A stretch of DNA of 64,000 nt. It comes from a virus. The notes beneath the pieces are model-generated. The model saw only the letters and a list, made by a program, of their open reading frames with translations, was not told where the DNA came from and did no database searches. The translations under genes and the position numbers were made by a program. Positions 8,666 to 62,539 of this stretch are shown here, in pieces (within the stretch, counting starts at the first letter, position 1; the number at the start of each line of letters is the position of its first letter). Location of the stretch: the UHGV virus genome UHGV-0197549. One strand, written 5' to 3'.

Positions 8666-8680
8666 CAACCCATTATCCCA

Positions 8681-8699
8681 TTAACCTAAACCTTAAAAC
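8681..8699 (+). promoter_or_regulatory. upstream motif instance TTAACCTAAACCTTAAAAC
   Basis: member of recurrent AACCTWAAACC family 8-27 nt before ATG of late genes (see findings). Confidence 0.3.
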
Positions 8700-8707
8700 T
8701 ATAAAAC

Positions 8708-9772
8708 ATGGCAGAAGCAGCTAATACGGTTTCCTTTCTCCAGAACGGCTATAACGGTGAAGTCCTTGAAGACTTGCTCACTTATACCGCGCAGGGAAAC
8801 GACACCTTTAAAGAAGGACTGATTCATATTAAGTCAGGCATCCAGCACAAATACACCTTGCCGGCCATCCGTCTGGGCGATATCATCCAGGACAACGTTC
8901 CCACCCCCACCAGCAGCCACGGTGCCAAAGGCGAAAACGGAGAAAACGAGTACGAATTTACAGAGCGCTACCTGATTCCGCAGGATTTCATGGTGTACCT
9001 CGAATTTAACCCCCGCGACTACGAGAAGTATTGGAAATTCGCACAACCCGAAGGCAACCTCGTCTTCCGTGAGCTCGACCCGAAGATTCAGGCCACGATG
9101 TTGCGTTTGCTAATGGACAAGAAAAATGAGTATATCGGCAATGCTATCTGGACCAGCGCCAAGGGAGGTTCAGCGGCAGCGGGGATTACATGTCCGGCAG
9201 ATTCCATCATCATCGGCAGGAACAAGGAGAAGTACTTTGACGGAGTGGTCAAGCGCATCATCGACAACATCAACGCCACTGACAGGGAAACCATCGCGGG
9301 TGGTCAGTGTGTGCTTGCAGGCAATACCGAACTTCCGGACGGGGCAGCCGTGGAAAAGGCACTTTACGGTATGTGGAAGAAATGTCCCAAGCAAATCCGC
9401 AAGAAAGCCGGACTTACATTCGTAATGAATTTCGAGCAGTGGGACGCATACGACCAGTATGTCAGTGACAAGATGGTGAAGTACTCCGAAAATACGGAAA
9501 TCAACCGCTACCGCTTCAAAGGAAAACGCATCCTTCCGCTGGTAGGCATCCCCGAGCATACGATTGTCCTAGGTGAATTTACCACCGGCATGGACTCTAA
9601 CCTCTGGATGGGCGTGGATTACGCAAACGACACGGAAGTGCTGAAAGTGGACCGCCTGCAAAGCAACTCGGAGCTGTTCTTCTTCCAGATGCGTATGAAA
9701 ATGGACGTGAATATCGTCCGTCCCGCTGAAATCGTGGTACACACCGCTTACAAGAAGGCACCCACCACCTGA
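8708..9772 (+). CDS. major capsid protein (putative)
   Basis: 354 aa directly after protease-scaffold gene; followed by strong terminator. Confidence 0.6.
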   Translation: MAEAANTVSFLQNGYNGEVLEDLLTYTAQGNDTFKEGLIHIKSGIQHKYTLPAIRLGDIIQDNVPTPTSSHGAKGENGENEYEFTERYLIPQDFMVYLEFNPRDYEKYWKFAQPEGNLVFRELDPKIQATMLRLLMDKKNEYIGNAIWTSAKGGSAAAGITCPADSIIIGRNKEKYFDGVVKRIIDNINATDRETIAGGQCVLAGNTELPDGAAVEKALYGMWKKCPKQIRKKAGLTFVMNFEQWDAYDQYVSDKMVKYSENTEINRYRFKGKRILPLVGIPEHTIVLGEFTTGMDSNLWMGVDYANDTEVLKVDRLQSNSELFFFQMRMKMDVNIVRPAEIVVHTAYKKAPTT

Positions 9773-14827: not shown

Positions 14828-15184
14828 ATGGAAGACAAATCACTCACGCTCGAACTGGAAGCGCAGATCAAGGAAACAGCCGGCAAGCTCAAAGCGGAAA
14901 AGAAACTGAGAAAAATCTATCCGCTGGTCGTGTTCGGTGACACCTCCTGCGGTGAAAAAGAGGTATACGTTGCCTATATGTCGGAGCCTACCTTCCCCCA
15001 GTTCTCCAAGTTTATGGTCGCCTCCCGCAAGGACGAGGTGATGGCGATGAAGACGCTTGCCAAGGACTGTTTCGTCGATGGAGACAAGGAACTGGTGGAT
15101 AACGAAAGCCTGTTCCTGTTCGGCCTGATGGGGCAGCTCACGGAAATCATCTCCACCCGCCAGAGCACGCTGGTAAATTTATAA
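14828..15184 (+). CDS. tail assembly chaperone (G-like, zero-frame product)
   Basis: ~118 aa from ATG 14828 (ORF-track ORF extends upstream without support); ends TAA 15182-15184 directly after slippery A_AAT_TTA. Confidence 0.55.
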   Translation: MEDKSLTLELEAQIKETAGKLKAEKKLRKIYPLVVFGDTSCGEKEVYVAYMSEPTFPQFSKFMVASRKDEVMAMKTLAKDCFVDGDKELVDNESLFLFGLMGQLTEIISTRQSTLVNL

Positions 15185-15369
15185 CCCGCTGGGAAGTACG
15201 TGACGACCACCGTATCCGGCAACGGCTGATTTATGTGCGTCACTACTTTCCCGGCGTGAACCTGGAAACCATTGATGACGAAGAGTTCGCCATTTTATCG
15301 GAAGAAGCCCTCTGGCTGCATAACCAGATGATGATAACCAAAGCCGCCAATGCCGCGCTATCCGTTTAA
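15175..15369 (+). CDS. -1 frameshift extension of tail assembly chaperone (GT-like product C-terminus)
   Basis: heptamer A AAT TTA at 15175-15181 (X XXY YYZ); -1 frame stays open 62 codons (ITRWEVRDDHRIRQRLIYVRHYFPGVNLETIDDEEFAILSEEALWLHNQMMITKAANAALSV) to TAA 15367-15369; no ATG of its own. Confidence 0.5.
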   Translation, partial: KFITRWEVRDDHRIRQRLIYVRHYFPGVNLETIDDEEFAILSEEALWLHNQMMITKAANAALSV

Positions 15370-15428
15370 CCGGCTTTTCATTCTTTATTACTTTCATTCA
15401 TTTTTCATTCTTTCATTTCCTTTGTTTT

Positions 15429-15466
15429 CCCCTGCCGCCACACAAGCGGCAGGGTTTTTCTTTTTT
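15429..15466 (+). terminator. rho-independent terminator between chaperone and tape-measure genes
   Basis: CCCTGCCGC / GCGGCAGGG 9-bp perfect stem (15429-15454) followed by TTTTTCTTTTTT. Confidence 0.6.
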
Positions 15467-15523
15467 AATCATACGCTCTCCTTTTCACCTATTCTTACCC
15501 GAACCTAACCTTGCATCCGTATT

Positions 15524-18500
15524 ATGACCCAAATCAAAGATTACCAGGTAAATTACAGCATTAACGTCACCGCTACCGAAGGCGTGCAGGAAGTCGAGAA
15601 ATTCGCCAAGGCGATGAAACAGCTCAGTGACGCCCGCAGCAACTTCATGCCGGCAGTCAATAGCGTCAATGACATGATGCAGCACATCGACAAAGTGTTC
15701 CGCCCCAAGGGCAGGAAGCGGGAATATACCTATAAGTTCGACATCGACACCGGTAAAAGCGAGAAGAAGCTGGAAAGCATCAAGGCGCTACTGACGGATA
15801 TCAAGGAGCTCACAACCGGTATCAACGTGGTCATCAACGCCGGGCAGAAGCTCGACACCAACACCATCCGCTCACAGGCAAAGGCGCTGGTGGGCAAGAA
15901 AGAACTGGAAGCGCAGAAGAGAAGCATCCGCAAGACCGCCTCCCAGTCCCTGAAAACGGTCAATGAGAAACAGCGCGAGGTTACCGGTGTGATCGGCAAA
16001 ATCAACTCCGCCCTTACCAGCCTGGAAGCCGGACGTGAAATCAATATCAGGACCGACGCGGCCAAAAACCGCCTGACGGAAATACTCGGCCTTCTCAGGC
16101 AGATAAAGACGGCATCCGATATCAATATGCCCTTCCGGATGGGTAGCGGCAAAGGAACATCTCCCGCCACTACACCCTTCCAGACCGGCTCCATCCTGAC
16201 GGACAAGGTATGGCAGCGGCAGCAGAAACAGGTTGCCAAAGCCGGTGAAGCCCGCACGATGCGGGAGATAGAAGCCCGGCAGGAAGCGGAATACCAACAG
16301 AACATACAGAAGAAGAAGGATGCCTTCAGGCGTACGAACGAGTGGCTGGAGCGCAGGGCAAAAAATTACGAATACTACGAACGGGCGAAGGTGGAACGTG
16401 TCCTGAAACAGGAACGGGAAGAGGAACGCCGGCAAAAGCGTGAAGCCGCCGGGGCCGCCCGCCGCAAACGGGAACAGGAACGGGAAGAGAAGCGGAACGT
16501 CATGAACTCCGTGCGGAACATGCAGAGGCAGGCCGCCGCAGGTGAAAGCGCCTATGGCGGCAAACGGCGTGCGGCCATCAACCGCCTTCAGTACTCCCGC
16601 CGCCCGTCCATCCGCAGCCTGCCGTTGGTGAACATGTTCAATGCCTACATGGCATACGGGTTCATCAAGTCCGAACTTTCCTCCGCCGTGGATTACAGCA
16701 ATATCATGGAGTCCGCCCGCAGCATCCTCAAGGTGGCTGACAGCGACCTCTCCACATTTGAGACACGCTTCCAACAGATGTCCTATAACGTGCGGAAGAT
16801 CGGTGTGGACACCAAGTTCACCGCCTTGGAGATTGCTTCGGCAGCGAAGTTCCTCGCCATGGCGGGCATGGACATCGCCACCATCAACGCTTCCATGCGC
16901 CCCATCAGCAACCTGGCGCTCATAGGCGACAACGATGTGGGGCTTATCGCCGACTTGACAACGAACATCATGTCCGGCTATAATATCCAAAGCGGCAGCA
17001 TGGGCACCGTGGCCGATATTATCACCTCCACCATCTCCCGTGCGAACGTGAACGTGGTCGAGATGGCGGAAAGCTTCAAGATGGCGTCGGGATACCTGAA
17101 GCTCTCCGGCGTGGACTTTTCCGAAGCAGCGGCGGCTATCGGTATCTTAGGCAATGCGGGCATGAAAGGCACCATGGCGGGAACCGCCCTGCGTGCGATG
17201 TCCACCCGCTTCGCCAAGCCTACCAAACAGGCGGAAGCCACACTGGACAGGCTCGGTGTCAAGTTTACCCGATTCACGGAGATAGCGGGCAAGAAAGTGG
17301 AAAAGCTCCGTCCGCTGGCAGAGATTTTCAAAGACCTTCACGATGCCGGGGCGAGTCTGGAAGATATGATTGCTATTTTCTCAAAGATCGGCGGCAACGC
17401 GGCGATGCAATTCGTGGTGAACTACGACAAGCTCCGGGTACTCACCACGCAGAACCGCGCTTCACACGGCATCTCCGACGAGCTGGCGCTTGTCAAGCAG
17501 AATACGACCAAGGGGCTTTGGGCACAGGTGACATCCACCCTGACGGAAAGCTTCATGCAGGCGTATGAGGTCGTAGAGCCCGTTATCAAAAGCATATTGA
17601 AGGACTTCCTGAGTAAGTTCAAGGCTCCGGAGTTTGCACGGGGCATCGCCTCTATCGGGCGGGCACTGCTGGATGTCTGTTCCGTGCTGGCTAACCTGGG
17701 TACATGGATGGCCCGTAACTTCCACTGGATAGAGCCGCTATTGTTCACCGGCTTTGTCGCTACGAAGATATTCAAACTGGCGGGCGCGGTAACGAACCTG
17801 GGTGTGGCCATCGGCTTTATCGGCAAACAGTCCGTCGCGTCTTCCACGCTCCAGCTTATCGCTTCCCTGACAGGCGGCGGTATCAATGTCAAAGCTTTGT
17901 CCTTCGCCAACAAGCGCAACATTGTCACCGCCCTGCGCGGGGCGGGAATCACGGGTAAAGGGGCCATGATGCAGGCGCTCGCCTCTACCGGCATGGCGGG
18001 GATGGGCGGTCTGACCGCACGCAGCGCCTTTACCTCCCTTTTTGCCAACCAGGTGGTGACCGGAACAGGCATCACAGGAGCCGCCGCCTCGTTGTCCGCC
18101 ATGGGTGCGGGCGCGGTGGCGGCTACCGCAGGCATTGCCGCACTGGTCGGCGCGTTGGGATGGGTCGCTTACAAGACCTGGCAGGTGAAGAAAGCCAAGG
18201 ATGCCGTACTGGAAGAGGTCAATGCCAACGAGAAGTACCGCTATCCTTCCATAGAAGCCCTGCACAACTCGCTACGGGATACATACCTCCAGGCTATCAA
18301 GACCAAGGAGGCGGTGGCGAACGTGACGGAAGGCAAGACGCTGGAAGAGGAATCCGGACAGAAAATCGGCGCGTTCACCGGTGAATGGTGGAGGGCGATG
18401 CTCTCCGGAATGGCAGCCGCCCAGACACATTCGGCACCCGATTATACCTATGATGACGCCTACCAGAAGAATGCGAAGGATGCTATCAACATCATCGCAC

Positions 18501-48035: not shown

Positions 48036-49076
48036 ATGGCGCTGTCCTTAAACGATACGGAGTTTCTCATCCGGGAGATTACCAAAGAACTGGATGCAAA
48101 GGCGGACGGTGCGGGAAAAAACCTGATTGCCCGGTGCCCCCGTTGCGGGAAAGAAGGAAAGTACGGTGTCTATGTAGGCAAAGAGACACAGCGGAAGAAG
48201 CCGTTCATGTCGCACTGTTTCAGTTGCGGATGTTCGACCTACACGCTGGAAGCATTGCTGGACTTTATAGGCAGGCCGGATTTGATGGTGGCTCCTACGG
48301 CTGACATTGACGCCCGGCTGGATACGAACCTGCTGTTCCCGCTGGAGGAAGGTGAAGAGATAGACGACGCGCTGGGCGTGGTGGAACTGCCGGACTTTTA
48401 CCGGAGATGCTTTACCCACCCTTATCTGAAATCCCGTGGGTTCACCTTCGATGACTACGAGTATTTTCCGGTGGGAACGACAAGGGGGCTCAACTTCCGC
48501 TACGATGATTATGTCGTCTTTCCCATTATTGACGAGGGTGATGTGGTGGGATACGTCTCACGCCACACTTGGAACAAGGACGAGATAGACAGGCATAACA
48601 GCCGGGTAAGGCGCAAGGGCGGATACCGGATACTGCGTTTCAGGAACTCTACGGAGAACGACTTTGTAAAGCTGCTCTATAACTATGATGCGGTAATTGA
48701 AGGCGTTACGGATACGGTAATCATCACGGAGGGGATATTCGACGTGATAGCATTAACAAGAAAACTGGAAATCTATGACAATAAACATGTGGCCGCGGTC
48801 GCCACCTTCGGAAAGAAGATATCCCGCACGCAGATTTACAAGCTGCAATGCAAAGGGGTAAAGACCGTAATACTGGGTTACGATGGAGACGCTGTTGAAG
48901 CCATAAAGAAGACAGCCGGTGAATTGAACGCTTACTTCCGGGTATTTATTGCCGACATACCGGATGCAGGAAAAGATTGGGAGGACCTCGGGGATGAAGA
49001 GATATACGGCATATTCTCTTACCGGTTGAGGACTCCCGCCGAGTACCGACTTTTAAAAGTTCAGGAATTAAAATGA
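48036..49076 (+). CDS. DNA primase (zinc-ribbon + TOPRIM)
   Basis: 346 aa; CPRCG...CFSCGC zinc ribbon; TOPRIM IITEGIFDVIAL and GYDGD. Confidence 0.65.
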   Translation: MALSLNDTEFLIREITKELDAKADGAGKNLIARCPRCGKEGKYGVYVGKETQRKKPFMSHCFSCGCSTYTLEALLDFIGRPDLMVAPTADIDARLDTNLLFPLEEGEEIDDALGVVELPDFYRRCFTHPYLKSRGFTFDDYEYFPVGTTRGLNFRYDDYVVFPIIDEGDVVGYVSRHTWNKDEIDRHNSRVRRKGGYRILRFRNSTENDFVKLLYNYDAVIEGVTDTVIITEGIFDVIALTRKLEIYDNKHVAAVATFGKKISRTQIYKLQCKGVKTVILGYDGDAVEAIKKTAGELNAYFRVFIADIPDAGKDWEDLGDEEIYGIFSYRLRTPAEYRLLKVQELK

Positions 49077-50794
49077 AAGAACTAATCAAATGGCTGGAAG
49101 CCAACAAAATCAAGTATCGACAGATAGACAATGAAGTAGTGGAGATGGAAGGATTGGGAAAGCTCTATGTGGCTGACCTGACGGAGGTGAGATCGGTGTT
49201 CCGGGTGACCGGTGAAGACATCCGGTTCAACCTGATGGAGAGCCCGGAGGTACTGGTTGCCGAGGGGATATTCCATGTGGCGTTCCCGTTCGGGGACAAC
49301 TGGTATTATTATAACCTGACCGAAGGGTTCCGGTTTAATATCCTCAAGTATGCGGGAGTACGGCAGCCTTGTAAAATGCAGGTACCTTTCGCGAATCTGG
49401 GCGTGCATACACCTTTTGAGTTGCTCAACGGTAGCGGAAGCATTGCCGACTGGGTACGGAAAGCGAAGTATCTGGGGCATACGGCACTGGGTATCTGTGA
49501 TAAAAACACAATGGCGGCCACGCTGAATCTACAGAAGGAATGTGCGGCACAGGGAATGAAGCATGTATTCGGATATACGCTGGAAATGGAATACGAAGGG
49601 GAAAAGATAGGGATGAAAGTCTATGCGCAGACACAGCGGGGAATGAGGAACCTGTTGCGCATCCAGAAGGAAATCATGGTGGACTCGGACAACCGGACGC
49701 TATCGCTTCAAGGACTGCTCACCCACGGGGAAGGCAATGTGCTGGTGCTGGGAAAACTCGCTTCCTACTGGATGAAGAAGAACCCGCATATCCTGGGAGC
49801 GATGGGGATTGCATTTGAAAAGGTGTTCTATCAGGTGGATTTGAGCGAATACAAGGCTGAACGTATCGACGTGGAAGTCCTGAAAGCTACCAAGTTCTTT
49901 TTTGATAATTTCTATGACCTACAGACCGGCTCATTTCAGATCGAACCCATTCTGCTTTGTGACACGTATTATCTGGACAAGGACGATGCACGCAACAAGA
50001 TTATCCTCAATAAGATAGCTACCGGGGCGGCCCACCGGCAAAGTGACGACCAGTATTTCAAGGATATAGACGAACACTACGCACTGTTTACTTCTCTCTT
50101 TGACGGGAATAAGTGGGAGCTGGACAGCCTGTTCAGGGGGATGTGCGCCCATACGGTAGAAATTGCCGAGGGGGCGGTTGCCCGTTATGAGACGGACAGG
50201 AACTTCATGCCGCAGTACGATATGACTGACAAGGAAAAACAGAGGTACGGTAACAGGCACCGGATGTTCCTTGAGTTGCTGGAGGAAGGATTCAGAAAGC
50301 TGGTTCCCGCCGGACAGGAAGATGAGTATCGCAAACGGCTGGACTACGAGGTGTATATCCTTGAATCCACCAATAATGTGGACTACATTCTGAATCAGTA
50401 TGATACGGTGAACTGGGCACGGGAGAACGGTATTCTTGTGGGCTGTGGCCGTGGTTCGGCGGGCGGTTCACTGGTACTCTACCTGCTGGGTATCACACTC
50501 ATTGACCCGATTAAATACGATTTGATTTTCGAGCGTTTCCTGCTGCCTGAACGTGCGGGGCTTTATCCGGATGAGGTGACGATCATTGTTGGCGGACTGG
50601 AATCCACAAAGATCGTGCATGTCACCTTAGCCAATGGCAAAGAGTATGTCTTTGACAAGGACGCCAAGTTCCGGGTGATGCGGGAAGGACGCAGCATGAT
50701 AGTCTATGCCGACGAGTTGAAGCTGGGCGATGACATCATCTTTGATAACAGGGATTTGGTATGGACACTTAATGAGACGGTTTATGGTTGTTAA
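49073..50794 (+). CDS. dnaE: DNA polymerase III alpha (DnaE) N-terminal part: PHP + palm start
   Basis: 573 aa; PHP motifs (VHTPFELLNGSGSIADWV...); GCGRGSAGGSLVLYLLGITLIDPIKYDLIFERFLLPER = DnaE signature; then ~77 extra aa and stop. Confidence 0.8.
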   Translation: MKELIKWLEANKIKYRQIDNEVVEMEGLGKLYVADLTEVRSVFRVTGEDIRFNLMESPEVLVAEGIFHVAFPFGDNWYYYNLTEGFRFNILKYAGVRQPCKMQVPFANLGVHTPFELLNGSGSIADWVRKAKYLGHTALGICDKNTMAATLNLQKECAAQGMKHVFGYTLEMEYEGEKIGMKVYAQTQRGMRNLLRIQKEIMVDSDNRTLSLQGLLTHGEGNVLVLGKLASYWMKKNPHILGAMGIAFEKVFYQVDLSEYKAERIDVEVLKATKFFFDNFYDLQTGSFQIEPILLCDTYYLDKDDARNKIILNKIATGAAHRQSDDQYFKDIDEHYALFTSLFDGNKWELDSLFRGMCAHTVEIAEGAVARYETDRNFMPQYDMTDKEKQRYGNRHRMFLELLEEGFRKLVPAGQEDEYRKRLDYEVYILESTNNVDYILNQYDTVNWARENGILVGCGRGSAGGSLVLYLLGITLIDPIKYDLIFERFLLPERAGLYPDEVTIIVGGLESTKIVHVTLANGKEYVFDKDAKFRVMREGRSMIVYADELKLGDDIIFDNRDLVWTLNETVYGC

Positions 50795-53012
50795 GAGTGT
50801 GGAATTTAAACAGACACAGATACCGGTTCAGGCTTTGGATTGCCTGACCGGTAACGGGTTCAGACAAGGAGACGGCGGAAGTCTACCGGATATTGATACC
50901 GACTTCGCTTCGAACAGGCGTCAGGAAGTAAAGGAATACCTGGAGCGTCGTTATAATATGAACGGAAAACAGCGTGTCTTCTCTGCCGGGACTTACTCGA
51001 CAATGAAACTGAAAGCTGCAATAAAAGACGTGTGCAGGGTATATAAAGTCCCTGTCAGTTATGTGAATTATATTACCGCCATTTTCGAGGATGACAACAT
51101 GAGTTGGACAGACCTGTTCATGTTTGCGACAACCAATAAGAAAGTAAACAAGTTCGTACAGGATTACCCGCAGGTGATTGAGGACATACGGGGACTGATG
51201 GGGCAACCGCGTTCGGCTTCCGTACATGCTTCGGCAATCATTGTTACACCGAACTCAAAGGACGGTGAGGATATGGAGTGCTTCGATTTTACTCCCATCA
51301 AGAAGGTGGACGATATTCTGGTATCGGAACTGGACGGGTATTCCATTGATGAAACGGGATTGTTGAAGAATGACTGTTTGGGCATCAAGGAACTTGCCAA
51401 GATACAGTCGGTCATAGATGAAAGTAACCGTGTGTATAATGCAGGCATCTCTTTTGAAGGGCTCGTCCGCAGCGGACTGGATGATGAGAAAACCTACCGG
51501 ATACTCGCCAAAGGGTACACCCAGAACGTTTTCCAGTTCAGCTCCGCAGGAATGACCAAGTTCCTGATGGATATGCAACCGGACTGCATCAATGATTTGA
51601 TTGCCGCCAATGCCTTGTATCGTCCGGCTACACTGGAATCGGGTTCTACTCAAAAGTATTTGGATTGTAAAAGAGGTGAAGTGGCTCCCGTATATCTGTG
51701 GGGAACTTATAATGCGCTAAAAGGTACGTACGGGCAATTAACATATCAGGAAGACCTGGCGCAAATGGCGAGGGAAATAGGTGGCTTTTCATTGGGAGAA
51801 GGTGTAAATCTCGTTAAGTATATATCAAAAAAGAAAGTCGAAAAAATTCATGCAATGAGGGATAAGTTTATGTCGGGAGCTCACGAAAAGGGATGCCCGA
51901 AAGAAGACGCAGACCTCATTTGGGATATGATTGAGGCGGGCGGTTCCTATATTTTTAACAAATCGCACGCAACGGCTTATGCCATCACATCGTATGTAGG
52001 TGCCTGGCTGAAAGCCAATTACCCGACTGCCTTCTACACCATCGCCCTGCAATGGGCGGATGACAAGGAACTCCCGCTTATCATGTCGGAAATGGAAGAA
52101 TGCAGTTCTGCCAAGGTGGTGCCGCCCGATATTAACACCTCAGCCGAAAAGTTCTTCACGGATTACCGGACGAATGAAATCTTCTGGTCGCTGGGTAAGA
52201 TAAAGATACTGGGAACCAAAGCGGTGCAATACATCATTGACGAGCGCACCAAAGGCGGTCCGTTTAAATCAATCGAGAACTTTATACACCGTATATTCAA
52301 ATACAAGCTGAAAAAGTACGAATACTGGGATGATGCGGATAATGAGCAGGAGGCCGTTAGGGTTCCCGTCAATGCACGTCACGTAAAGAACCTGATTCTT
52401 GCCGGTTGCTTCGATAAGGTAAGCAATATCAGTGCCGTTGTGGAAAGGTATTCGATACTGGATAAGGCGGCTACGGAACTGGGATTCAAGATTCCCACCG
52501 GTGACTATCCCGACCACCTGATTAACCAGCATTACTTCTGGAGTATGCAGCAGATCGAGGTCTGTGGCATCGGGCGGATTGACTACAAGCGGATATATGA
52601 TAACTCCTATTGCCGCCACCAGTTCAAAGGGCGGGCATCCTATTCTACCGTACATAACGCGCTCCTGTCCGGAAGCGAAGGAAAGAAGGTCGCCCTTTGC
52701 GCGACTGTTACGGAAATGGAGGAAATCTCCTACAAGGACAAAAAGACGGGAGAAAGGAAGCACCTCTGCAAACTGCATCTCCAACAGAACAACGACCTGA
52801 TAAAGCTCGTATGCTGGAATGACTTCTACATAGAGAATAAAACGGAACTCCAGGATATAAAAGGTAAGATTGTCATCGTATCGGCAATCGTCAAGTACAA
52901 TGACTACAGCGGAGGCAACAGCCTGAATACCTACAAGACTTCCCGGCTATTCACACTTAACCAATCATCAGAAAATCAAATAAACCAAGAAGATGGCAGC
53001 ACCAAAAAATGA
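50730..53012 (+). CDS. dnaE: DNA polymerase III alpha (DnaE) C-terminal part
   Basis: 760 aa in +1 frame; LPDIDTDFASNRRQEVKEYLERRY continues the DnaE motif (..PDIDTDF...); frame closed upstream by TGA 50718-50720. Confidence 0.8.
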   Translation: MTSSLITGIWYGHLMRRFMVVKSVEFKQTQIPVQALDCLTGNGFRQGDGGSLPDIDTDFASNRRQEVKEYLERRYNMNGKQRVFSAGTYSTMKLKAAIKDVCRVYKVPVSYVNYITAIFEDDNMSWTDLFMFATTNKKVNKFVQDYPQVIEDIRGLMGQPRSASVHASAIIVTPNSKDGEDMECFDFTPIKKVDDILVSELDGYSIDETGLLKNDCLGIKELAKIQSVIDESNRVYNAGISFEGLVRSGLDDEKTYRILAKGYTQNVFQFSSAGMTKFLMDMQPDCINDLIAANALYRPATLESGSTQKYLDCKRGEVAPVYLWGTYNALKGTYGQLTYQEDLAQMAREIGGFSLGEGVNLVKYISKKKVEKIHAMRDKFMSGAHEKGCPKEDADLIWDMIEAGGSYIFNKSHATAYAITSYVGAWLKANYPTAFYTIALQWADDKELPLIMSEMEECSSAKVVPPDINTSAEKFFTDYRTNEIFWSLGKIKILGTKAVQYIIDERTKGGPFKSIENFIHRIFKYKLKKYEYWDDADNEQEAVRVPVNARHVKNLILAGCFDKVSNISAVVERYSILDKAATELGFKIPTGDYPDHLINQHYFWSMQQIEVCGIGRIDYKRIYDNSYCRHQFKGRASYSTVHNALLSGSEGKKVALCATVTEMEEISYKDKKTGERKHLCKLHLQQNNDLIKLVCWNDFYIENKTELQDIKGKIVIVSAIVKYNDYSGGNSLNTYKTSRLFTLNQSSENQINQEDGSTKK

Positions 53013-55490: not shown

Positions 55491-56198
55491 ATGTCTGAAC
55501 TTATAAAAATTATCGAAAAAGAAGACGGCAGAAGAGCTGTATCAGCAAGAGAACTGCATCTGTTTTTAGAGAGCAAGCGAGACTTCTCACACTGGATGAA
55601 AGATCGTATCGTAAAATATGGTTTAATAGAAAATATTGATTATCAAGCTTTACACTATGACTACCTTGGTAACTTATTGAATATCAGACGTGACAAATTT
55701 GGCGAGTCTGAAAATCAGCATGTTAGTAAAATTGAATATGTGCTTTCAATTGATGCAGCCAAAGAGCTTTCAATGGTAGAGGGTAATGAAAAAGGTAAAG
55801 AAGCCCGCAGATATTTTATCACTTGTGAAAAGATTGCTCTTGAGAAAAAAGCATCTTATTCTCCGGCTGAACTTTTGCTACATTCTGCCCAGATTCTCTT
55901 GGAACAGGAACGAAGAACAAAAGCTATTGAAAATAAGGTGAATCAAATAGAAGAAAGAACAATTACTGATTTGAAACATAGTACAGTGGTAGCTTATGTA
56001 ACACGAAATAAGATATGCCTTGACTTTAAACGTTATTCAGTTATTGGAGCAAAGGCGAGCAGACTATGTAAGAAACGGGGTCTTCAAATTTCAAAAGTGA
56101 ATGATGTACGTTTCGGAACTGTAAATGTCTATTCAGACGAAATACTCGATGAAGTATTTGCTACTGAAAACAACCAGTTTAAATCTAAAGAAAAATGA
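55491..56198 (+). CDS. antirepressor (AntA/ORF6N-type N-terminal domain)
   Basis: 235 aa; RRAVSARELHLFLESKRDFSHWMKDRIVKYGLIENIDY matches AntA/ORF6N N-terminal domain; GC ~37%. Confidence 0.55.
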   Translation: MSELIKIIEKEDGRRAVSARELHLFLESKRDFSHWMKDRIVKYGLIENIDYQALHYDYLGNLLNIRRDKFGESENQHVSKIEYVLSIDAAKELSMVEGNEKGKEARRYFITCEKIALEKKASYSPAELLLHSAQILLEQERRTKAIENKVNQIEERTITDLKHSTVVAYVTRNKICLDFKRYSVIGAKASRLCKKRGLQISKVNDVRFGTVNVYSDEILDEVFATENNQFKSKEK

Positions 56199-57462: not shown

Positions 57463-58926
57463 TTAAGATTTCCCATACTTTCTAAAAGCCGAAACCACTT
57501 GAAATATTCCATAAGCTATTGCCACTTTACCTAATAAAAAAAAGACTGTCCCTAATATAAGACTAAGATTTGAACTATTCATTTGATAAAGTTCGGCTAA
57601 CTCATTTAATCCATCTGGCAACCACAAGTATTGTATAGCAGTGTTCCAGTAATTACTGTCAAATAAAAGCCATATACAATTCTCTTGGAATGGAAATGCA
57701 ATTCCTTCCTTAGACATAATAAAAACGGAATAGCATAAATGCCAAACAATAACAGTAAATAAAACACCTGTTATCCAACTTAGTCCAAAATTATTTGAAA
57801 GCCTGTTCAAATTAAGCAAGATCAGATCACTACATGTCTTTTCCCCTAGTTTTAAAGACTTTCTATATGCATTCATCTCATTAGATTTAAAGATTAGTGC
57901 GTGAGGGCGATTCATGTTTTCTTCCATACAACATTTCAATTGCCTAAAAATTTCTTTCTGTTTTCTCCAATAATTAACGTTCTTTGGAGTTTCTTGGATA
58001 TTTAACTTTTTTGCATCAAACCAGTGAACATTGATTATGGTTAGATTTATCAGGACACTAGCCTCTATCTTTATGTTATTAAAAGAATTAAGATCACAGT
58101 TTAGGAAAGACGTGTTCCCGAGATTTGAGTTCCATATTTTTAATTCGCTATTTAATGTTTGATTAGAATGAAGCGACTGAAAAATCACAGTAGCTTCATT
58201 AATAAAAGTGTCAAATGTGAGCTTACAAGTATCAATGTTATTGAATTGAATATTAGCACTATAATTAAATCCTTCTAATGATATCTTATCTGATACCGAC
58301 ATTCCTTCAAAAGAAATATCACCAACAAGGCTTTTAGCCGTTATTATTTTTATTGTATCAAGAAGTTGTTTTTCTTCTTTATCCCCGCCATTAAATCTTA
58401 CCTTATCACAAAATTCTGATTTTTCAATAAATATTTGTTTAGCACCTCCTTTTACCTCAGCTTGTCCGTTATCACATTCGTTAATTGTTACTTTTTGTTT
58501 AAAAATGCCTCCTATAATACTTAAATTTTGACATTTTATAGCAGTTATAATAAACTCGTCATCATATCTACCATTGTTAAAAGTGATGCTTCCAGACAAT
58601 GTACCCCTCCATAAATAAACATCCTTTGCAAATATTGTATTAATGAACGTATAGTTAGCAGCATCCACTGATTCTAATCGAACTTTTCCCAATATGCTAG
58701 AATCAAGAAAATCAAGTCCAATAGACTGTATTTTAGTATTACTTATCAAAAGACTATTATTAATTTGTGATCTATCAATAATAAATCCATTATAGAAGCA
58801 TAATAAATATTCAATATAAATATCATCAACATTGGTTTCTTCTAACATTATTCCTCTTTTAAAAAATGTTGGATATACTTTGGATCCATTAGAAGTGCCT
58901 CTTATATCTATTTTTTTATGAGACAT
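57463..58926 (-). CDS. pentapeptide-repeat-like beta-helix protein with C-terminal 2-TM domain
   Basis: 487 aa; ~30% GC; hydrophobic residue every 5th position over ~300 aa (e.g. SNLGNTSFLNCDLNSFNNIKIEASVLINLTI); C-terminal TM helices WITGVLFTVIVWHLCYSVFIM and LSLILGTVFFLLGKVAIAYGIFQVV. Confidence 0.5.
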   Translation of the reverse strand: MSHKKIDIRGTSNGSKVYPTFFKRGIMLEETNVDDIYIEYLLCFYNGFIIDRSQINNSLLISNTKIQSIGLDFLDSSILGKVRLESVDAANYTFINTIFAKDVYLWRGTLSGSITFNNGRYDDEFIITAIKCQNLSIIGGIFKQKVTINECDNGQAEVKGGAKQIFIEKSEFCDKVRFNGGDKEEKQLLDTIKIITAKSLVGDISFEGMSVSDKISLEGFNYSANIQFNNIDTCKLTFDTFINEATVIFQSLHSNQTLNSELKIWNSNLGNTSFLNCDLNSFNNIKIEASVLINLTIINVHWFDAKKLNIQETPKNVNYWRKQKEIFRQLKCCMEENMNRPHALIFKSNEMNAYRKSLKLGEKTCSDLILLNLNRLSNNFGLSWITGVLFTVIVWHLCYSVFIMSKEGIAFPFQENCIWLLFDSNYWNTAIQYLWLPDGLNELAELYQMNSSNLSLILGTVFFLLGKVAIAYGIFQVVSAFRKYGKS

Positions 58927-59210
58927 TTTTTAAAGACAATTGAATTAGCTGGATTAAACTTAAGGAACTCTTCTGTGTCTTCTTTGATTTTGCAGTTATA
59001 AAAACAAACTTCTTTTTCAAAGGTGCAATTTTCAAAATAAACCCAACTACCAAGGGTCAAATTTGCGAATATTACAGAGCTACAAAAACGACAGCCTTTA
59101 AAAGTGAAACTATGATATTCATTATCCTCAAACTGAACAGTAGTAGTGTATGTCTGATTTTCTTTTTGATATTTATTCATGTTATTCGTATTTTTCTGTG
59201 ATATGTTCAA
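58908..59210 (-). CDS. small pentapeptide-repeat-like protein (possibly N-terminal fragment of downstream gene)
   Basis: 100 aa; FKGCRFCSSVIFANLTLGSWVYFENCTFEKEVCFYNCKI 5-residue periodicity; overlaps downstream ORF start by 19 nt in another frame. Confidence 0.4.
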   Translation of the reverse strand: MNISQKNTNNMNKYQKENQTYTTTVQFEDNEYHSFTFKGCRFCSSVIFANLTLGSWVYFENCTFEKEVCFYNCKIKEDTEEFLKFNPANSIVFKKCLIKK

Positions 59211-59260
59211 AGTTAACTAGTAATATCTGCAAAGATACAGTATTTAAAATGTCTGTCTAA

Positions 59261-60082
59261 TTAATTATACATGATGTTTTCACTTCTACTTTTGTAAAGG
59301 TGGGGTGTTGGGGGAACTTTTCCAATAGTATCAATTAAATTAGTTTTTTGTATATTAGTGTATTCCTGTAGTAAAACTTTAATTTCTTCCAACTCTTTAT
59401 TTTGCTTTTTAATATATTCATCTGATGTGTTGTTATTGGGAAAAACCGTAAAGATGTATATCAATAGCCCACTTAGTCCAACAGTAAGCACCCATTTGAA
59501 TACTTCTTGACTAAAACTGTATAATTTAGATTTTTGATAATCACTGCCAACTGAATAACTCTTAAAATTTCGAAGTTTCCAGCATCTATATTTATCAAAT
59601 AGTGAAGGAGAACCATCAATTGAAGTACATTCCATATATGAATTTAAGTAATTCCATTGTTTTTTGAGAAATGATATATCATTAAGTTTCTTAGGATGAA
59701 TGTAATCTTCTACAAATATGGCAGATTCAATAGATTTAGTATATGGAGTACTGGAAGGATGTAATATTATAGCAACATATCCGTGATCGTTAAGATGGAA
59801 TGCTAAAGTAGCTCCATTTTCAACCAAAAACTCCTTATTTGTTTTTAAATCTTTAGTTATTGTTATTTTTTCATCATAAGAGCTGGCCCCATAGAATACT
59901 TCAGCAATTCTGTTATTAACAGCCCCATTTCTTCCCTTAGGGCAAACGCAAAGCATATATATATCATCTAATTTATTATATTTTTGATCATCTGCCTTAA
60001 ATTTCTTAAATACAGCTTCAATTTTTGACGTTTGAAACTCTTGAAATAACCTCACTCGATCTAACCTAGTGTCTTTTGTCAT
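59261..60082 (-). CDS. hypothetical membrane-anchored protein (one TM + C-terminal coiled coil)
   Basis: 273 aa; ~30% GC; TM WVLTVGLSGLLIYIFTVF; first gene of minus-strand island after AT-rich divergent promoter region. Confidence 0.5.
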   Translation of the reverse strand: MTKDTRLDRVRLFQEFQTSKIEAVFKKFKADDQKYNKLDDIYMLCVCPKGRNGAVNNRIAEVFYGASSYDEKITITKDLKTNKEFLVENGATLAFHLNDHGYVAIILHPSSTPYTKSIESAIFVEDYIHPKKLNDISFLKKQWNYLNSYMECTSIDGSPSLFDKYRCWKLRNFKSYSVGSDYQKSKLYSFSQEVFKWVLTVGLSGLLIYIFTVFPNNNTSDEYIKKQNKELEEIKVLLQEYTNIQKTNLIDTIGKVPPTPHLYKSRSENIMYN

Positions 60083-60251
60083 AATAATATGGATTTATGT
60101 TTTTTGTTGATTAATGCCATAAAGATAATAAACATAAAAATAACTACATATTATTTCATATATTTATTTATAAAGCATTTTATAATTGTTTGTTCCCTCT
60201 TTTATAGTGTATTCCCCTATACTTTCCTATATAACCTAAATCATGTAAATA

Positions 60252-60695
60252 ATGAAACTCACACTAAAACGAAAGTTCGTCGGTGACAAATACACCGTTG
60301 GAGATTTATTCATTGACGGTAAGTTCTTCTGCAACGCAATTGAGGATACAGTAAGAAAACTTCCGGTTATTTGTCCTTATACCTCCAAAGGACAATCCTG
60401 TAAATGCAAAGAGAAAATCTATGCGCAGACTGCCATTTCAGCTGGAACGTATAAAGTAACCATGGAATACAGTCCACGATTCAAACGCAAGTTGCCACTC
60501 CTACATAATGTACCTCACTTCATTGGGATTCTCATTCATAGCGGTACCACGGAAATAGATTCAGCCGGCTGTTTAATTGTTGGGAATAACACCATCAAAG
60601 GCAAGGTAACTGAATCACGTGCCACCTCCGACAAGTTGAACGCCATTCTATCCAAAGAAAAACACATCACAATCGAAATAATCAATGGCAAGTAA
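60252..60695 (+). CDS. hypothetical protein (HSG...SAGC motif reminiscent of L,D-transpeptidase/YkuD-fold active site; tentative)
   Basis: 147 aa; IGILIHSGTTEIDSAGCLIVGNN; overlaps terL exon 1 start by 11 nt. Confidence 0.4.
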   Translation: MKLTLKRKFVGDKYTVGDLFIDGKFFCNAIEDTVRKLPVICPYTSKGQSCKCKEKIYAQTAISAGTYKVTMEYSPRFKRKLPLLHNVPHFIGILIHSGTTEIDSAGCLIVGNNTIKGKVTESRATSDKLNAILSKEKHITIEIINGK

Positions 60696-62539
60696 AAAGT
60701 TGGTCCCACCTAAGAACCTTCACATCGACTTCAAGCCTTCACCTAAACAGTATGAACTCTGGAAACTACTCCAGCCTGAATGCCCGTTATGTGGAGGTGA
60801 AATCGAACAGAAGCTGATAGGCTACGACACCAATCACAACCCCAAGTATAAGCCGCACTGCATCAAGTGTGGCAATTCCAATATACCGCAACTCATTCTG
60901 GGTGGCGGTGCCGCTGGTAAACGATTCCTCTGCCAGCCTATGCAGTAATGCATAGAAAACAATCTCTTTAATTGCTGGAAACTCTGACCGCATAATGGCG
61001 AAGACAATCAGCAGCCAAGCCGGTTCAGCCGGAAGGTTCAACGGCTATCCGAAAGGAGTACGGTCAAGCGACCGGAAATGGGAGACTCCTTAGTCAGCTA
61101 AGGATGAAGATATAGTCTCATCTGCATGGAAACATGCAGCAGCGAAAGCGGTCACACCGTAGCGAAGTGTGGCGAAGAAATACCAAATGGGTGGAAAATC
61201 GTATTTGGCAAGTGTTTGGCTTGTGAGTAGTTGTATTAGATTTCCGGATGTGCGTGCAATAGTGGCGAGAAAGACGTTGAAATCTTTAAAGGAAAGTACC
61301 TGGAATACAATCCGTATGATTATTAAGGGCTGGGGGCTCGTTGAAGATGTGAACTATCATATTAACAGCGTAGCCGGAACTCTTCGGTTTTGGAATGATT
61401 CAGTAATTCTGATGCTTGATTTAGCCGATTTACCCTCGGACCCAAATTTCGAGCGTTTTGGTTCAATGGAAGCAACGATTGCGGCATGTGATGAGGTTTC
61501 GGAAGTTAGTCAGAAAGCAATTGAAGTATTGTTTTCTCGTTTACGATGGAAGACACACGAGACATTCAAAGTTTCTAAAATGCTCCTTACAACCAATCCG
61601 ACAACCAACTGGGTAAGAACCCGATTCGTACAAGACGAAAACGGAGACAAGACAGTTACACGTGAAGGTGAGTTTTATGTTCCCTTCAGTGTATTCGACA
61701 ATCCCGACATCGCCTTCCGCCAAACCTACGAAGCCGCTCTAAACAAGATCAGCGACCAGGCAACGAAAGAGCGACTACTTTACGGTAACTGGGACTTTGT
61801 AGAGGCAAACGACATGGCGCTCTACAATCAGTTCGACGGGACCAGGCATTTGATTACCGGACTGAAAGAAAAGGTATATGACCCAACTAAGCCGCTGATC
61901 GTTGTGTGGGACTTCAACGTTGCACCTTATATGTCTACCCTGTTAGTTCAGATTGACTACGACAAGAAGAAGGTATATATTATCGAAGAGATACTGGGAA
62001 AGGCAGAGGATAAAGAGAATAACACACCATCACTCGCCCGAAAAATCAAAAAGAAGATGTACCGTCAAAAACACATCGGAGGCTTGGATATAACAGGCGA
62101 CCCAGCCGGACTCCAACGTTCAACCACCAACGAAGACGGCGTGAATAACTATACGATAATAAATGAGACGTTGGGCAAAGGGATACTGCGCCCAAAAATC
62201 AAACTCCTGAAGAAGCAACCGCCACAGGCACCACGTTGTGAGTTTGTGAATGAAGTTTTCAAAGGTTACAACGGTTGGGAAATAATGATTGACCTGCGTT
62301 GCCGGAAACTTACACAGGACTTAATCTATCAGCTAAAGAACGAGGACGGAAGCAAAGGAAAGCCTAAAGTAACGGACTCTAAAACCGGAGTGAAGTACGA
62401 AAAGTACGGTCACTTGTCAGATTGCCTTGATTATTTGCTTTGCTATTATCTTAGAGATGCGTGGTATAAGTTCAAGAGCGGTGACGATAGCGGCAGCATC
62501 CTTTCTACAGCTACCATTTCAGAAGGATTTAACTACTAA
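60685..62539 (+). CDS. terL: terminase large subunit, interrupted by group I intron (exon 1 60685..60918, exon 2 61190..62539)
   Basis: exon 1 ends in P-loop LILGGGAAG(K); exon 2 (LLTTNPTTNWVRTRF; VVWDFNVAPYMSTLLVQIDYD...YIIEEI nuclease-like) lacks a P-loop; splice predicted to give GAAGGGKS. Confidence 0.65.
60919..61189 (+). ncRNA. group I self-splicing intron (no internal ORF), boundaries +/- a few nt
   Basis: IGS GCCAGC (60933-60938) pairs with exon end GCUGGU (U.G at splice site); GCAGCCAAGCC (cf. Tetrahymena GCAGCCAAGUCC); P7 halves GGCUAU/AUAGUC within ACGGCUAUCC...GAUGAAGAUAUAGUCUCAUC (AAGAUAUAGUC also in Tetrahymena and T4 td introns); terminal G at 61189. Confidence 0.6.

What the first reader, a model, noticed from the sequence alone, without database searches (positions are those of the whole stretch)
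57463..60251. AT-rich minus-strand island between terS/lysis block and terL: pentapeptide-repeat proteins fused to a 2-TM domain plus a TM/coiled-coil partner, a candidate undescribed exclusion or defence module
Three co-oriented minus-strand genes (59261..60082, 58908..59210, 57463..58926) have about 30% GC against a ~53% backbone, and they sit in a 170-nt AT-rich divergent promoter region. That placement is the classic signature of a recently acquired moron. Both the 100-aa and 487-aa products show strict 5-residue periodicity of hydrophobic residues (e.g. FANLT LGSWV YFENC TFEKE; NLGNT SFLNC DLNSF NNIKI), i.e. a pentapeptide-repeat beta-helix (Qnr/MfpA-like DNA-mimic fold). The large protein ends in two transmembrane helices. 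The first gene encodes a soluble domain, one TM helix and a coiled coil. I do not know a described phage-defence or superinfection-exclusion system with a membrane-anchored pentapeptide-repeat protein. The architecture (putative DNA-mimic sensor + 2-TM effector + membrane partner), the composition and the location between packaging genes, all inferred by eye without a database search, make it a plausible abortive-infection/exclusion candidate.
Basis: partly seen in the sequence, partly recalled or inferred. Interest (0 to 1): 0.8.

Follow-up and report, generated by a model that had tools for sequence, protein, structure and literature searches.

The report
Frameshifted beta-helix membrane gene in prophage
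A low-GC cargo island in a common Bacteroides prophage holds two genes, not three; the larger belongs to a big unannotated family found in anti-phage defence islands, its membrane domain resembles the Hailong ion-channel effector HalA, and here it is broken by a one-base slip in a run of A's.

Summary
The island is real: 29% GC against 50% for the rest of the window, on the minus strand, between the lysis/Ant block and DUF5675-terL. It was misread in three ways.

1. The 100-aa and 487-aa ORFs are one 572-aa gene split by an A8-to-A7 deletion. The intact allele of the same phage strain exists, but the broken allele dominates public data (292 contigs against about 17).
2. The soluble domain is predicted to be a three-sided right-handed beta-helix with rungs of about 21-22 residues. 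It is not a Qnr/MfpA-type pentapeptide DNA mimic.
3. The 273-aa membrane protein is not a conserved partner. Its family occurs alone on other mobile elements.

It is most likely a single-protein sensor plus membrane-channel anti-phage factor, switched off in this copy. No function has been tested.

The parts
57463..59180 (-). One gene for a 572-aa beta-helix plus two-TM protein, interrupted here by a 1-nt deletion. It reads as a 90-aa N-terminal fragment (ATG 59180 to TAG 58908-58910) and a 487-aa ORF (ATG 58926 to 57463).
   Evidence: Homologues are 562-624 aa. Inserting one A gives a 572-aa ORF identical to P0221. The AF2 model of close homologue P0001 has pLDDT 89.2 and pTM 0.80.
58911..58917 (-). 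A7 homopolymer tract (A8 in intact alleles). This is the frameshift site: CTC ATA AAA AAA TAG.
   Evidence: It is the only indel against L001/L002 and among 11 near-identical copies. A7 and A8 copies are otherwise identical over 7.7 kb. The A7 product is on 292 contigs and the intact product on about 17.
57997..59180 (-). Coding region for the cytoplasmic right-handed beta-helix (about residues 1-395 of the intact protein).
57466..57990 (-). Coding region for the C-terminal helical membrane domain (residues 398-572). It holds the conserved motifs REIFRQLK, SNxxGxSW and QxxSAFRKYGK.
57706..57774 (-). TM helix 1
   Evidence: Kyte-Doolittle maximum 2.0. Helix 469-492 in the AF2 model.
57502..57570 (-). 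TM helix 2. It is followed by a basic cytoplasmic tail, SAFRKYGKS.
   Evidence: Kyte-Doolittle maximum 2.06. The inter-TM loop has 0 K/R and 5 D/E, and the tail has 3 K/R, which indicates N-in/C-in topology.
59208..59237 (-). Two matches to the Bacteroidota -7 promoter motif TAnnTTTG in the spacer upstream of ATG 59180. This is a possible own promoter for the big gene.
   Evidence: Pattern search. This is a consensus match only, and function is not shown.
59261..60082 (-). Gene for a 273-aa single-pass membrane protein: an N-terminal domain of about 195 aa with a conserved CxCPxGRxGG...EVFYG motif, a TM helix at residues 197-215 (59438-59494), and a variable helical tail. It is an independent accessory gene.
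   Evidence: It has its own family of 50 listed homologues and alignment A5. No significant Pfam or PDB hit. It occurs alone in conjugative transposons, next to SymE/AbiEii, and between an ECF sigma factor and FecR.
60083..60251 (.). 169-nt AT-rich divergent intergenic region between the 273-aa gene and the DUF5675 gene.
   Evidence: GC 0.20. The sigma-70 scan found no more sites than shuffled sequence (18 against 18.0) and no TAnnTTTG motif was found here.

Best explanation
The island is a two-gene accessory cassette sitting in a cargo hotspot of a temperate Bacteroides phage.

The main gene encodes, when intact, a 572-aa inner-membrane protein. Its N-terminal part is a cytoplasmic right-handed beta-helix of about 390 residues. 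Its C-terminal part is a helical domain with two TM helices whose predicted fold resembles HalA, the tetrameric ion-channel effector of the Hailong defence system.

I infer that it is a single-protein anti-phage factor acting by abortive infection or exclusion. In this model the faster-evolving beta-helix senses, or is held in check by, a phage-derived or cellular ligand. The highly conserved membrane domain then oligomerises or opens and dissipates membrane potential.

In this window the gene is in an OFF state, because an A8 tract has slipped to A7. The intact allele of the same strain also circulates, so the tract acts as a mutational switch, whether or not the switch is reversible.

The upstream 273-aa single-pass membrane protein is a separate mobile-element accessory gene. 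It merely travels with the big gene in this phage lineage.

What is shown: gene structure, frameshift, allele frequencies, predicted fold, family size and genomic contexts. What is inferred: defence function, sensing by the helix, and channel activity.
For: One gene, frameshifted:
- Homologue lengths and the single A8->A7 indel establish that the two ORFs are one gene.
- The same strain carries both alleles.

Structure:
- AF2 models are confident.
- HalA is a homotetrameric DNA-gated ion channel that depolarises cells (PMC13434031).
- Topology is N-in/C-in with no signal peptide.

Selection:
- dN/dS is 0.11 overall, 0.05-0.08 in the membrane domain and 0.14-0.17 in the helix.

Family:
- 6,481 representatives at E<=1e-3 and 985 at E<=1e-30, almost all full length.
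- All 39 reference species found are Bacteroidota.

Contexts:
- HigB/HTH and ArdC, then the gene, then OloA/OloB and QatABCD.
- DrmD-like SNF2 helicase, then the gene, then (GmrSD-like in one locus) type III Mod and Res, in three loci. The helicase neighbour is found in five loci.
- Abi_C nearby.
- Integrases plus AAA_23/MC2/CTD6 conflict genes.
- ResIII, SNF2, methylases, GmrSD and AAA_21 recur among 150 neighbouring proteins.

Mobility:
- The gene's GC is below its flanks in 34 of 36 loci.
- The island's dS (0.15-0.36) is far below that of backbone genes (0.6-1.9). It was therefore exchanged between phages more recently than the backbones diverged.

Precedent:
- Rip1 is a prophage sensor-pore protein located between terS and terL (PMC13434031).
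Against: - No experiment exists, and no hit in PADLOC 2023.
- No HalB-like or other conserved regulator is nearby. How a toxic channel would be kept silent is unexplained.
- The commonest allele is the broken one (292 against about 17 contigs). L066 carries a second disruption. This is compatible with a dispensable or decaying gene.
- Defence-island association was seen in about 10 of about 40 loci, without a formal background control.
- Only 1 locus was found in IMG/VR.
Confidence: 0.45

Rival explanations
1. Non-abortive superinfection exclusion. The inner-membrane protein interferes with genome entry or with the injection machinery of incoming phages, as P22 SieA and similar proteins do, without killing the cell. 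The beta-helix would act as a cytoplasmic-face binding platform.
For: - The protein is prophage-encoded and sits in the inner membrane with a large cytoplasmic domain.
- The position is moron-like.
- No regulator is needed if the protein is not toxic, which fits the lack of a conserved partner.
Against: - Most family members are chromosomal, in defence islands beside restriction-modification-like and Abi-type systems, rather than in prophages. Only 1 IMG/VR locus was found.
- The fold match is to a depolarising channel effector.
- Recurrent inactivation suggests the gene is costly to carry.
Confidence: 0.18
2. One reading: a three-component module in which membrane-anchored pentapeptide-repeat, Qnr/MfpA-like DNA-mimic proteins sense DNA-binding enzymes, a two-TM effector acts, and the 273-aa protein is an obligate membrane partner.
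For: - Marginal Pentapeptide_3 matches: 22.2 bits on the N-terminal fragment, with some relatives reaching the threshold.
- Weak profile hits to AlbG and MfpA (E 0.085 and 0.19).
- AlbG and QnrB1 appear among weak Foldseek hits.
- The two genes are adjacent in all close relatives.
Against: - There are two genes, not three.
- Periodicity is not significant.
- The 273-aa family is absent from about 40 other loci of the big family, and the big family is absent from the 273-family loci examined.
Confidence: 0.06
3. A decaying or neutral passenger. In this phage the gene is a pseudogene with no current role, and the family's native function is unrelated to phage defence, for example a membrane-anchored cytoplasmic scaffold or an envelope-associated function carried on mobile elements.
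For: - The frameshifted allele dominates (292 contigs), and there is a secondary disruption in L066.
- Split copies also occur in three reference genomes, L038, L047 and L049.
- There is no match to any defence model.
- Many loci have ordinary neighbours such as TonB receptors, glycosidases and regulators.
Against: - Purifying selection is strong between intact relatives (dN/dS 0.11-0.17).
- The family is large, with a conserved full-length architecture.
- It is repeatedly embedded inside or beside known defence systems.
- The A7 copies have no other decay across 1.7 kb, so the inactivation is very recent or reversible.
Confidence: 0.2
4. The A7 allele is still expressed. Either -1 ribosomal frameshifting on A_AAA_AAA just before the TAG codon, or transcriptional slippage on the A run, yields a low dose of the full-length protein. 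The 'broken' allele would then be a dosage-tuned form rather than an OFF form.
For: - The site is a canonical X_XXY_YYZ heptamer in the zero frame, and a -1 shift gives exactly the ...CLIKKIDIRG... junction of the intact protein.
- The A7 allele is very widespread and otherwise undecayed.
Against: - The frameshift is not conserved. Relatives encode the protein in frame, with A8 (L001, L002, L059-L064) or an interrupted tract AAATAAAA in L011.
- There is no stimulatory structure downstream (z 0.04).
- Seven A's is short for efficient transcriptional slippage (general knowledge, not tested here).
Confidence: 0.1

Closest known systems
HalA, the membrane ion-channel effector of the Hailong anti-phage system (PDB 9nyi; Tan et al. 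2025, as summarised in PMC13434031)
   Same: - Both are inner-membrane proteins.
- Both occur in defence-island contexts.
   Different: - Only 7% identity, with no sequence or profile link.
- No adjacent HalB nucleotidyltransferase, and no evidence of oligo-dA binding.
- A 390-residue beta-helix is fused at the N-terminus.
- The oligomeric state is unknown.
- The family was found only in Bacteroidota in the reference-genome scan.
Pentapeptide-repeat proteins (Qnr, MfpA, AlbG/McbG; Pfam Pentapeptide families)
   Same: - Both are right-handed beta-solenoids.
- The first rungs give marginal Pentapeptide_3 matches, and a few relatives reach the Pfam threshold.
   Different: - Rungs are about 21-22 residues, not 20.
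- The best structural matches are three-sided beta-helices.
- The protein is about three times longer, membrane-anchored, and sits in defence islands rather than with topoisomerase-protection genes.
Rip1 (ring-interacting pore 1), a Pseudomonas prophage sensor-plus-pore protein (Patel et al. 2026, as summarised in PMC13434031)
   Same: - It is a single prophage-encoded protein proposed to combine sensing with membrane disruption.
- It is encoded between the small and large terminase genes.
   Different: - No sequence or fold relationship was detected.
- Rip1 uses an amphipathic helix and assembles around phage terminase or portal rings.
- It occurs in Proteobacteria.
Pectate-lyase-like and autotransporter passenger beta-helices (Vag8, EtpA, phage tailspikes and depolymerases)
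   Different: - Those proteins are secreted or part of the virion.
- This domain has no signal peptide, is predicted to be cytoplasmic, and has no catalytic-site evidence.
Homopolymer contingency loci (phase-variable genes switched by slipped-strand mispairing)
   Same: A poly-A tract inside the ORF varies in length (A7 or A8) between otherwise identical sequences from many samples.
   Different: - Reversibility is not shown. The haplotype data fit a single recent deletion equally well.
- The tract is not conserved across the family.

Membership tests
Pentapeptide-repeat proteins (Qnr/MfpA type) | Tandem five-residue repeats detected by Pfam pentapeptide models above the gathering score | tested here: not met
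   Pentapeptide_3 scores 22.2 bits on the 100-aa ORF and 16.9 bits on the intact P0221, against a cutoff of 27. The 487-aa ORF gives no hit. Period-5 power is not significant. Some relatives do reach the threshold.
Pentapeptide-repeat proteins (Qnr/MfpA type) | Four-sided right-handed beta-helix with 20 residues per coil | tested here: not met
   [not shown]
Pentapeptide-repeat proteins (Qnr/MfpA type) | DNA-mimicking dimer that protects or inhibits topoisomerases | not testable with these tools
   This needs an experimental structure and biochemistry.
Hailong system (HalA + HalB) | HalA-type transmembrane channel effector | tested here: inconclusive
   [not shown]
Hailong system (HalA + HalB) | Adjacent HalB nucleotidyltransferase that makes the inhibitory oligo-dA | tested here: not met
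   No nucleotidyltransferase was found in the window island or in related loci, and no neighbour is conserved across about 40 loci.
Known anti-phage defence systems (PADLOC-DB 2.0) | A match of any island protein to a defence-protein model | tested here: not met
   Zero families at E<=1 for all three ORFs.
Defence-island-associated gene family (guilt by association) | Recurrent location next to known defence genes in unrelated genomes | tested here: met
   Neighbours include Olokun plus Qat plus HigBA/ArdC, a DrmD-like helicase with type III restriction-modification genes and a GmrSD-like gene, Abi_C and AAA_23/MC2/CTD6 with integrases. No formal background control was run.
Prophage moron / accessory cargo | Atypical composition, opposite orientation, a position between conserved modules, and cargo that varies among relatives | tested here: met
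   GC is 0.29 against 0.50, on the minus strand among plus-strand genes. Relatives carry different extra genes at the same site: L001 has 279-aa, 58-aa and HTH genes, and L011 has 233-aa and 88-aa genes. The island's dS is well below that of the backbone.
Phase-variable contingency locus | Homopolymer tract in the ORF with length polymorphism on an otherwise identical background | tested here: met
   A7 and A8 are the only indel difference among 11 copies, and A8 copies L059 and L061 differ from the A7 window only at the tract over 7.7 kb.
Phase-variable contingency locus | Reversible, recurrent switching | tested here: inconclusive
   The four-gamete test against 3 informative SNPs shows no violation, and A7 occurs on one haplotype only. 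Read-level or culture data are needed.
Programmed -1 ribosomal frameshift | Slippery heptamer, conservation of the frameshift in relatives, and a downstream stimulatory structure | tested here: not met
   The heptamer A_AAA_AAA is present. Relatives are in frame, and the downstream fold has z 0.04.

The most novel reading that the evidence does not exclude
The beta-helix plus two-TM protein founds a previously unrecognised single-gene anti-phage family of more than 1,000 clusters, found only in Bacteroidota so far. A HalA-like depolarising channel would be gated directly by a fused cytoplasmic beta-helix sensor, instead of by a separate HalB-made DNA ligand. In a highly prevalent gut Bacteroides prophage, its expression would be toggled ON and OFF by slippage in an A7/A8 tract, or dosed by low-level -1 frameshifting. 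That would be a phase-variable, prophage-borne abortive-infection switch.
Probability: 0.2. Interest if true: 0.8.

Novelty: new variant of a known kind. Interest (0 to 1): 0.6.

Why it matters
If the inference holds, it adds a large and so far unannotated family to the Bacteroidota defence repertoire, a phylum poorly covered by defence catalogues built around E. coli and Bacillus.

It would also show that the HalA-type channel fold is used outside Hailong, with a fused protein sensor in place of a DNA ligand.

The A7/A8 polymorphism in a phage seen on hundreds of metagenomic contigs offers a natural ON/OFF pair for testing the cost and benefit of a prophage-borne defence gene in the gut.

If the inference fails, the result is still useful. 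It corrects a three-gene, DNA-mimic reading to a two-gene cassette with one frameshifted gene.

Tried and rejected
- Family libraries gave nothing significant for the 487-aa and 273-aa proteins (Pfam, PADLOC, PHROGs, NCBIfam).
- Megablast and tblastn against 50,697 GenBank phage records found no match.
- Profile searches of the whole protein, the C-terminal domain and the 273-aa family against PDB sequences returned only marginal or noise hits: AlbG and MfpA at E about 0.1, neuraminidase, carbonic anhydrase.
- Pfam scans of 34 C-terminal domains and 33 members of the 273-aa family found no consistent family. DUF6708 appeared in 6 of 33 members, all sub-threshold.
- The afdb50 fold library was unavailable.
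- Clustering of neighbours within three genes across about 40 loci found no universally conserved partner.
- The sigma-70 promoter scan equalled the shuffled expectation (18 against 18.0) and found no intrinsic terminators. It does not model Bacteroidota promoters.
- No frameshift-stimulating RNA structure was found.
- I first took P0220 (378 aa, 27 contigs) for a second independent disruption. Its DNA in L065 is identical to the window, so it is only a different gene call of the same A7 allele.
- My first dN/dS run used a wrong start coordinate and was discarded (for that gene), then corrected.
- The primary Hailong paper (PMC12360457) is not held, so HalA's properties are taken from reviews.
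Full report
**1. Observation**

The three minus-strand ORFs are at the stated coordinates. The island 57463-60251 has GC 0.291. The 169-nt region 60083-60251 is 20% GC.

On one side lie a terS-like gene (phrog_51), a lysozyme, AntA and DUF6549. On the other lie DUF5675 and terL. None of the island proteins matches PADLOC, PHROGs or NCBIfam. Pfam gives only a sub-threshold Pentapeptide_3 hit (22.2 bits against a cutoff of 27) on the 100-aa ORF. GenBank phages hold nothing similar.

**2. Two ORFs are one gene**

Homologues of the 487-aa ORF are 562-624 aa long. The closest, P0001 (92% identity), reads ...CIIKKIDIRG... straight across the junction. In the window the junction is CTC ATA AAA AAA TAG.

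DNA alignment with L001 and L002 shows a single indel in 1.8 kb: A8 in the relatives and A7 in the window, at 58911-58917. Restoring one A gives a 572-aa ORF with no internal stop. That ORF is identical to database protein P0221.

The exact 487-aa product is on 292 public contigs, including NCBI DAM12338.1 (Caudoviricetes sp.). The intact P0221 is on about 17. Among 11 near-identical copies the tract is the only indel. A8 copies L059 and L061 differ from the window at nothing else over 7.7 kb. A second haplotype carries A8 only, and there is no four-gamete violation. L066 has a further disruption on the A7 background.

The frameshift is therefore real and not an assembly error. It is very recent or reversible, and it marks a slippage-prone site. 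It is not a conserved programmed frameshift: relatives are in frame (L011 has AAATAAAA at this position), and there is no downstream structure (z 0.04).

**3. What the big protein is**

AlphaFold2 on a 20-sequence alignment gives pLDDT 89.2 and pTM 0.80. The model is a beta-solenoid to about residue 390, followed by helices from 402 to 571.

There is no signal peptide. The loop between the TM helices is acidic (0 K/R, 5 D/E) and the tail is basic (3 K/R), which indicates N-in/C-in topology with the beta-helix in the cytoplasm.

**4. Family and contexts**

A profile search found 6,481 representatives at E<=1e-3 and 985 at E<=1e-30, nearly all full length at 560-630 aa. All 39 reference species carrying the family are Bacteroidota. 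Only one IMG/VR locus was found. No neighbour is conserved across about 40 loci.

The contexts are defence-like:
- L009 has HigB/HTH and ArdC, then the gene, then Olokun OloA/OloB (E 5e-96 and 2e-191), then QatABCD.
- L022, L023 and L038 have a DrmD-like SNF2 helicase (E about 1e-200), then the gene, then (a GmrSD-like gene in L023) type III Mod and Res. The helicase neighbour is seen in five loci.
- L006 lies near Abi_C.
- L003-L005 lie among integrases and AAA_23/MC2/CTD6 conflict-system genes.
- Among 150 neighbouring proteins, ResIII, DEAD, SNF2, N6_N4_Mtase, GmrSD, ArdC and AAA_21 recur.

The gene's GC is below its flanks in 34 of 36 loci, by 8 points on average. Three reference genomes hold split copies.

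**5. The 273-aa gene**

Its family is broader, reaching Prevotellaceae, Sphingobacterium and Enterovibrio. It occurs without the big family in several settings: between an ECF sigma factor and FecR, in Bacteroidales conjugative-transposon backbones, and beside SymE and AbiEii modules.

HMM searches confirm that the two families co-occur only in this phage lineage. There is no significant Pfam or PDB relative. dN/dS is 0.41. It is an independent accessory gene of unknown function.

**6. Island dynamics**

Related prophages L001, L011 and L059-L064 keep the two-gene cassette at the same site. They differ in adjacent cargo: L001 has 279-aa, 58-aa and HTH genes, and L011 has 233-aa and 88-aa genes. 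Apart from the HTH protein, none of these matches a known family.

The island's synonymous divergence (dS 0.15-0.36) is far below that of the flanking backbone genes (0.6-1.9). The cassette has therefore moved between these phages more recently than their backbones diverged. Two TAnnTTTG motifs lie upstream of ATG 59180.

**7. Interpretation**

The best-supported reading is a two-gene accessory cassette whose main gene is a candidate single-protein anti-phage factor. It would combine a cytoplasmic beta-helix as the sensing or regulatory module with a HalA-like two-TM domain as the membrane effector. The copy in this window is switched off by the A7 slip.

Stronger constraint on the membrane domain (dN/dS 0.05-0.08) than on the helix (0.14-0.17) fits a constant effector paired with a faster-evolving sensor. 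Rip1 provides a precedent for a prophage sensor-pore gene between terS and terL.

The function is inferred, not shown.

**8. Novelty**

No library or paper searched describes this family. It resembles known kinds, namely membrane-depolarising abortive-infection effectors and prophage morons, but it is a sequence member of none of them. I therefore class it as a new variant of a known kind. Interest is moderate to high (0.6) pending experiments.

Noticed in passing
window 60919-61189 (terL = 60685-60918 + 61190-62539): terL is interrupted by a 271-nt group I intron (Rfam RF00028, 86 bits, E 1e-21) inserted in the Walker A coding sequence. The 5' exon ends in U and the intron ends in G. Splicing restores a 527-aa TerL (GGGAAGGGKS) that is 89% identical to the uninterrupted TerL of L001. 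The intron has no ORF. terL is called in the same two pieces (87 aa plus about 450 aa) in L010, L011, L059, L060, L063 and L066, so the intron is presumably present there too. It is absent in L001.
   Followed up: yes
L022, L023, L038 (also L020, L024): There is a conserved arrangement of a DrmD-like SNF2 helicase, the beta-helix plus two-TM gene, and type III Mod and Res genes (with a GmrSD-like gene in L023). In Flavobacteriales, Pedobacter and Chryseobacterium the family gene may be an integral part of, or a frequent insertion into, a helicase-associated type III restriction-modification system.
   Followed up: partly
window 55491-56198: The AntA/anti-repressor gene is also low in GC (0.35) compared with its neighbours, so it looks like a second piece of accessory cargo. 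L011 has a Bro-N/ANT protein at the equivalent place.
   Followed up: no
window 57536-57543: A second homopolymer (T8 on the coding strand) lies in the TM2 coding region of the big gene. Cluster member P0226 has a C-terminal frameshift (...FQENLYMAFI), upstream of this tract, so other slippage or decay alleles exist.
   Followed up: no
L015 (Flavobacterium sp. W1B chromosome) 7878-9596 and 15144-16862: Two copies of the family gene with identical HMM scores lie about 7 kb apart, which suggests a recent duplication or a repeated mobile element.
   Followed up: no
L067 (SRR33520799 contig) 1-2900: In this contig the phage sequence stops inside the big gene (from window-equivalent position 507 of the aligned region) and abuts bacterial ECF sigma, FecR and TonB-receptor genes. 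This is the same kind of neighbourhood in which a 273-family member sits in Sphingobacterium (L012). It may be a rearrangement, a prophage end or an assembly chimera.
   Followed up: no
window 49073-53012: The phage DNA polymerase III alpha is encoded as two overlapping ORFs, PHP plus N-terminal part (573 aa) and the remainder (760 aa). L001 has the same split, so it appears to be a conserved feature and not an error.
   Followed up: no
L058 669-5905: Upstream of a 273-family member lie three large genes (556, 517 and 664 aa). One has HATPase_c_3 and another has a weak mad8 match. SymE and AbiEii modules follow. This may be an uncharacterised defence cluster.
   Followed up: no
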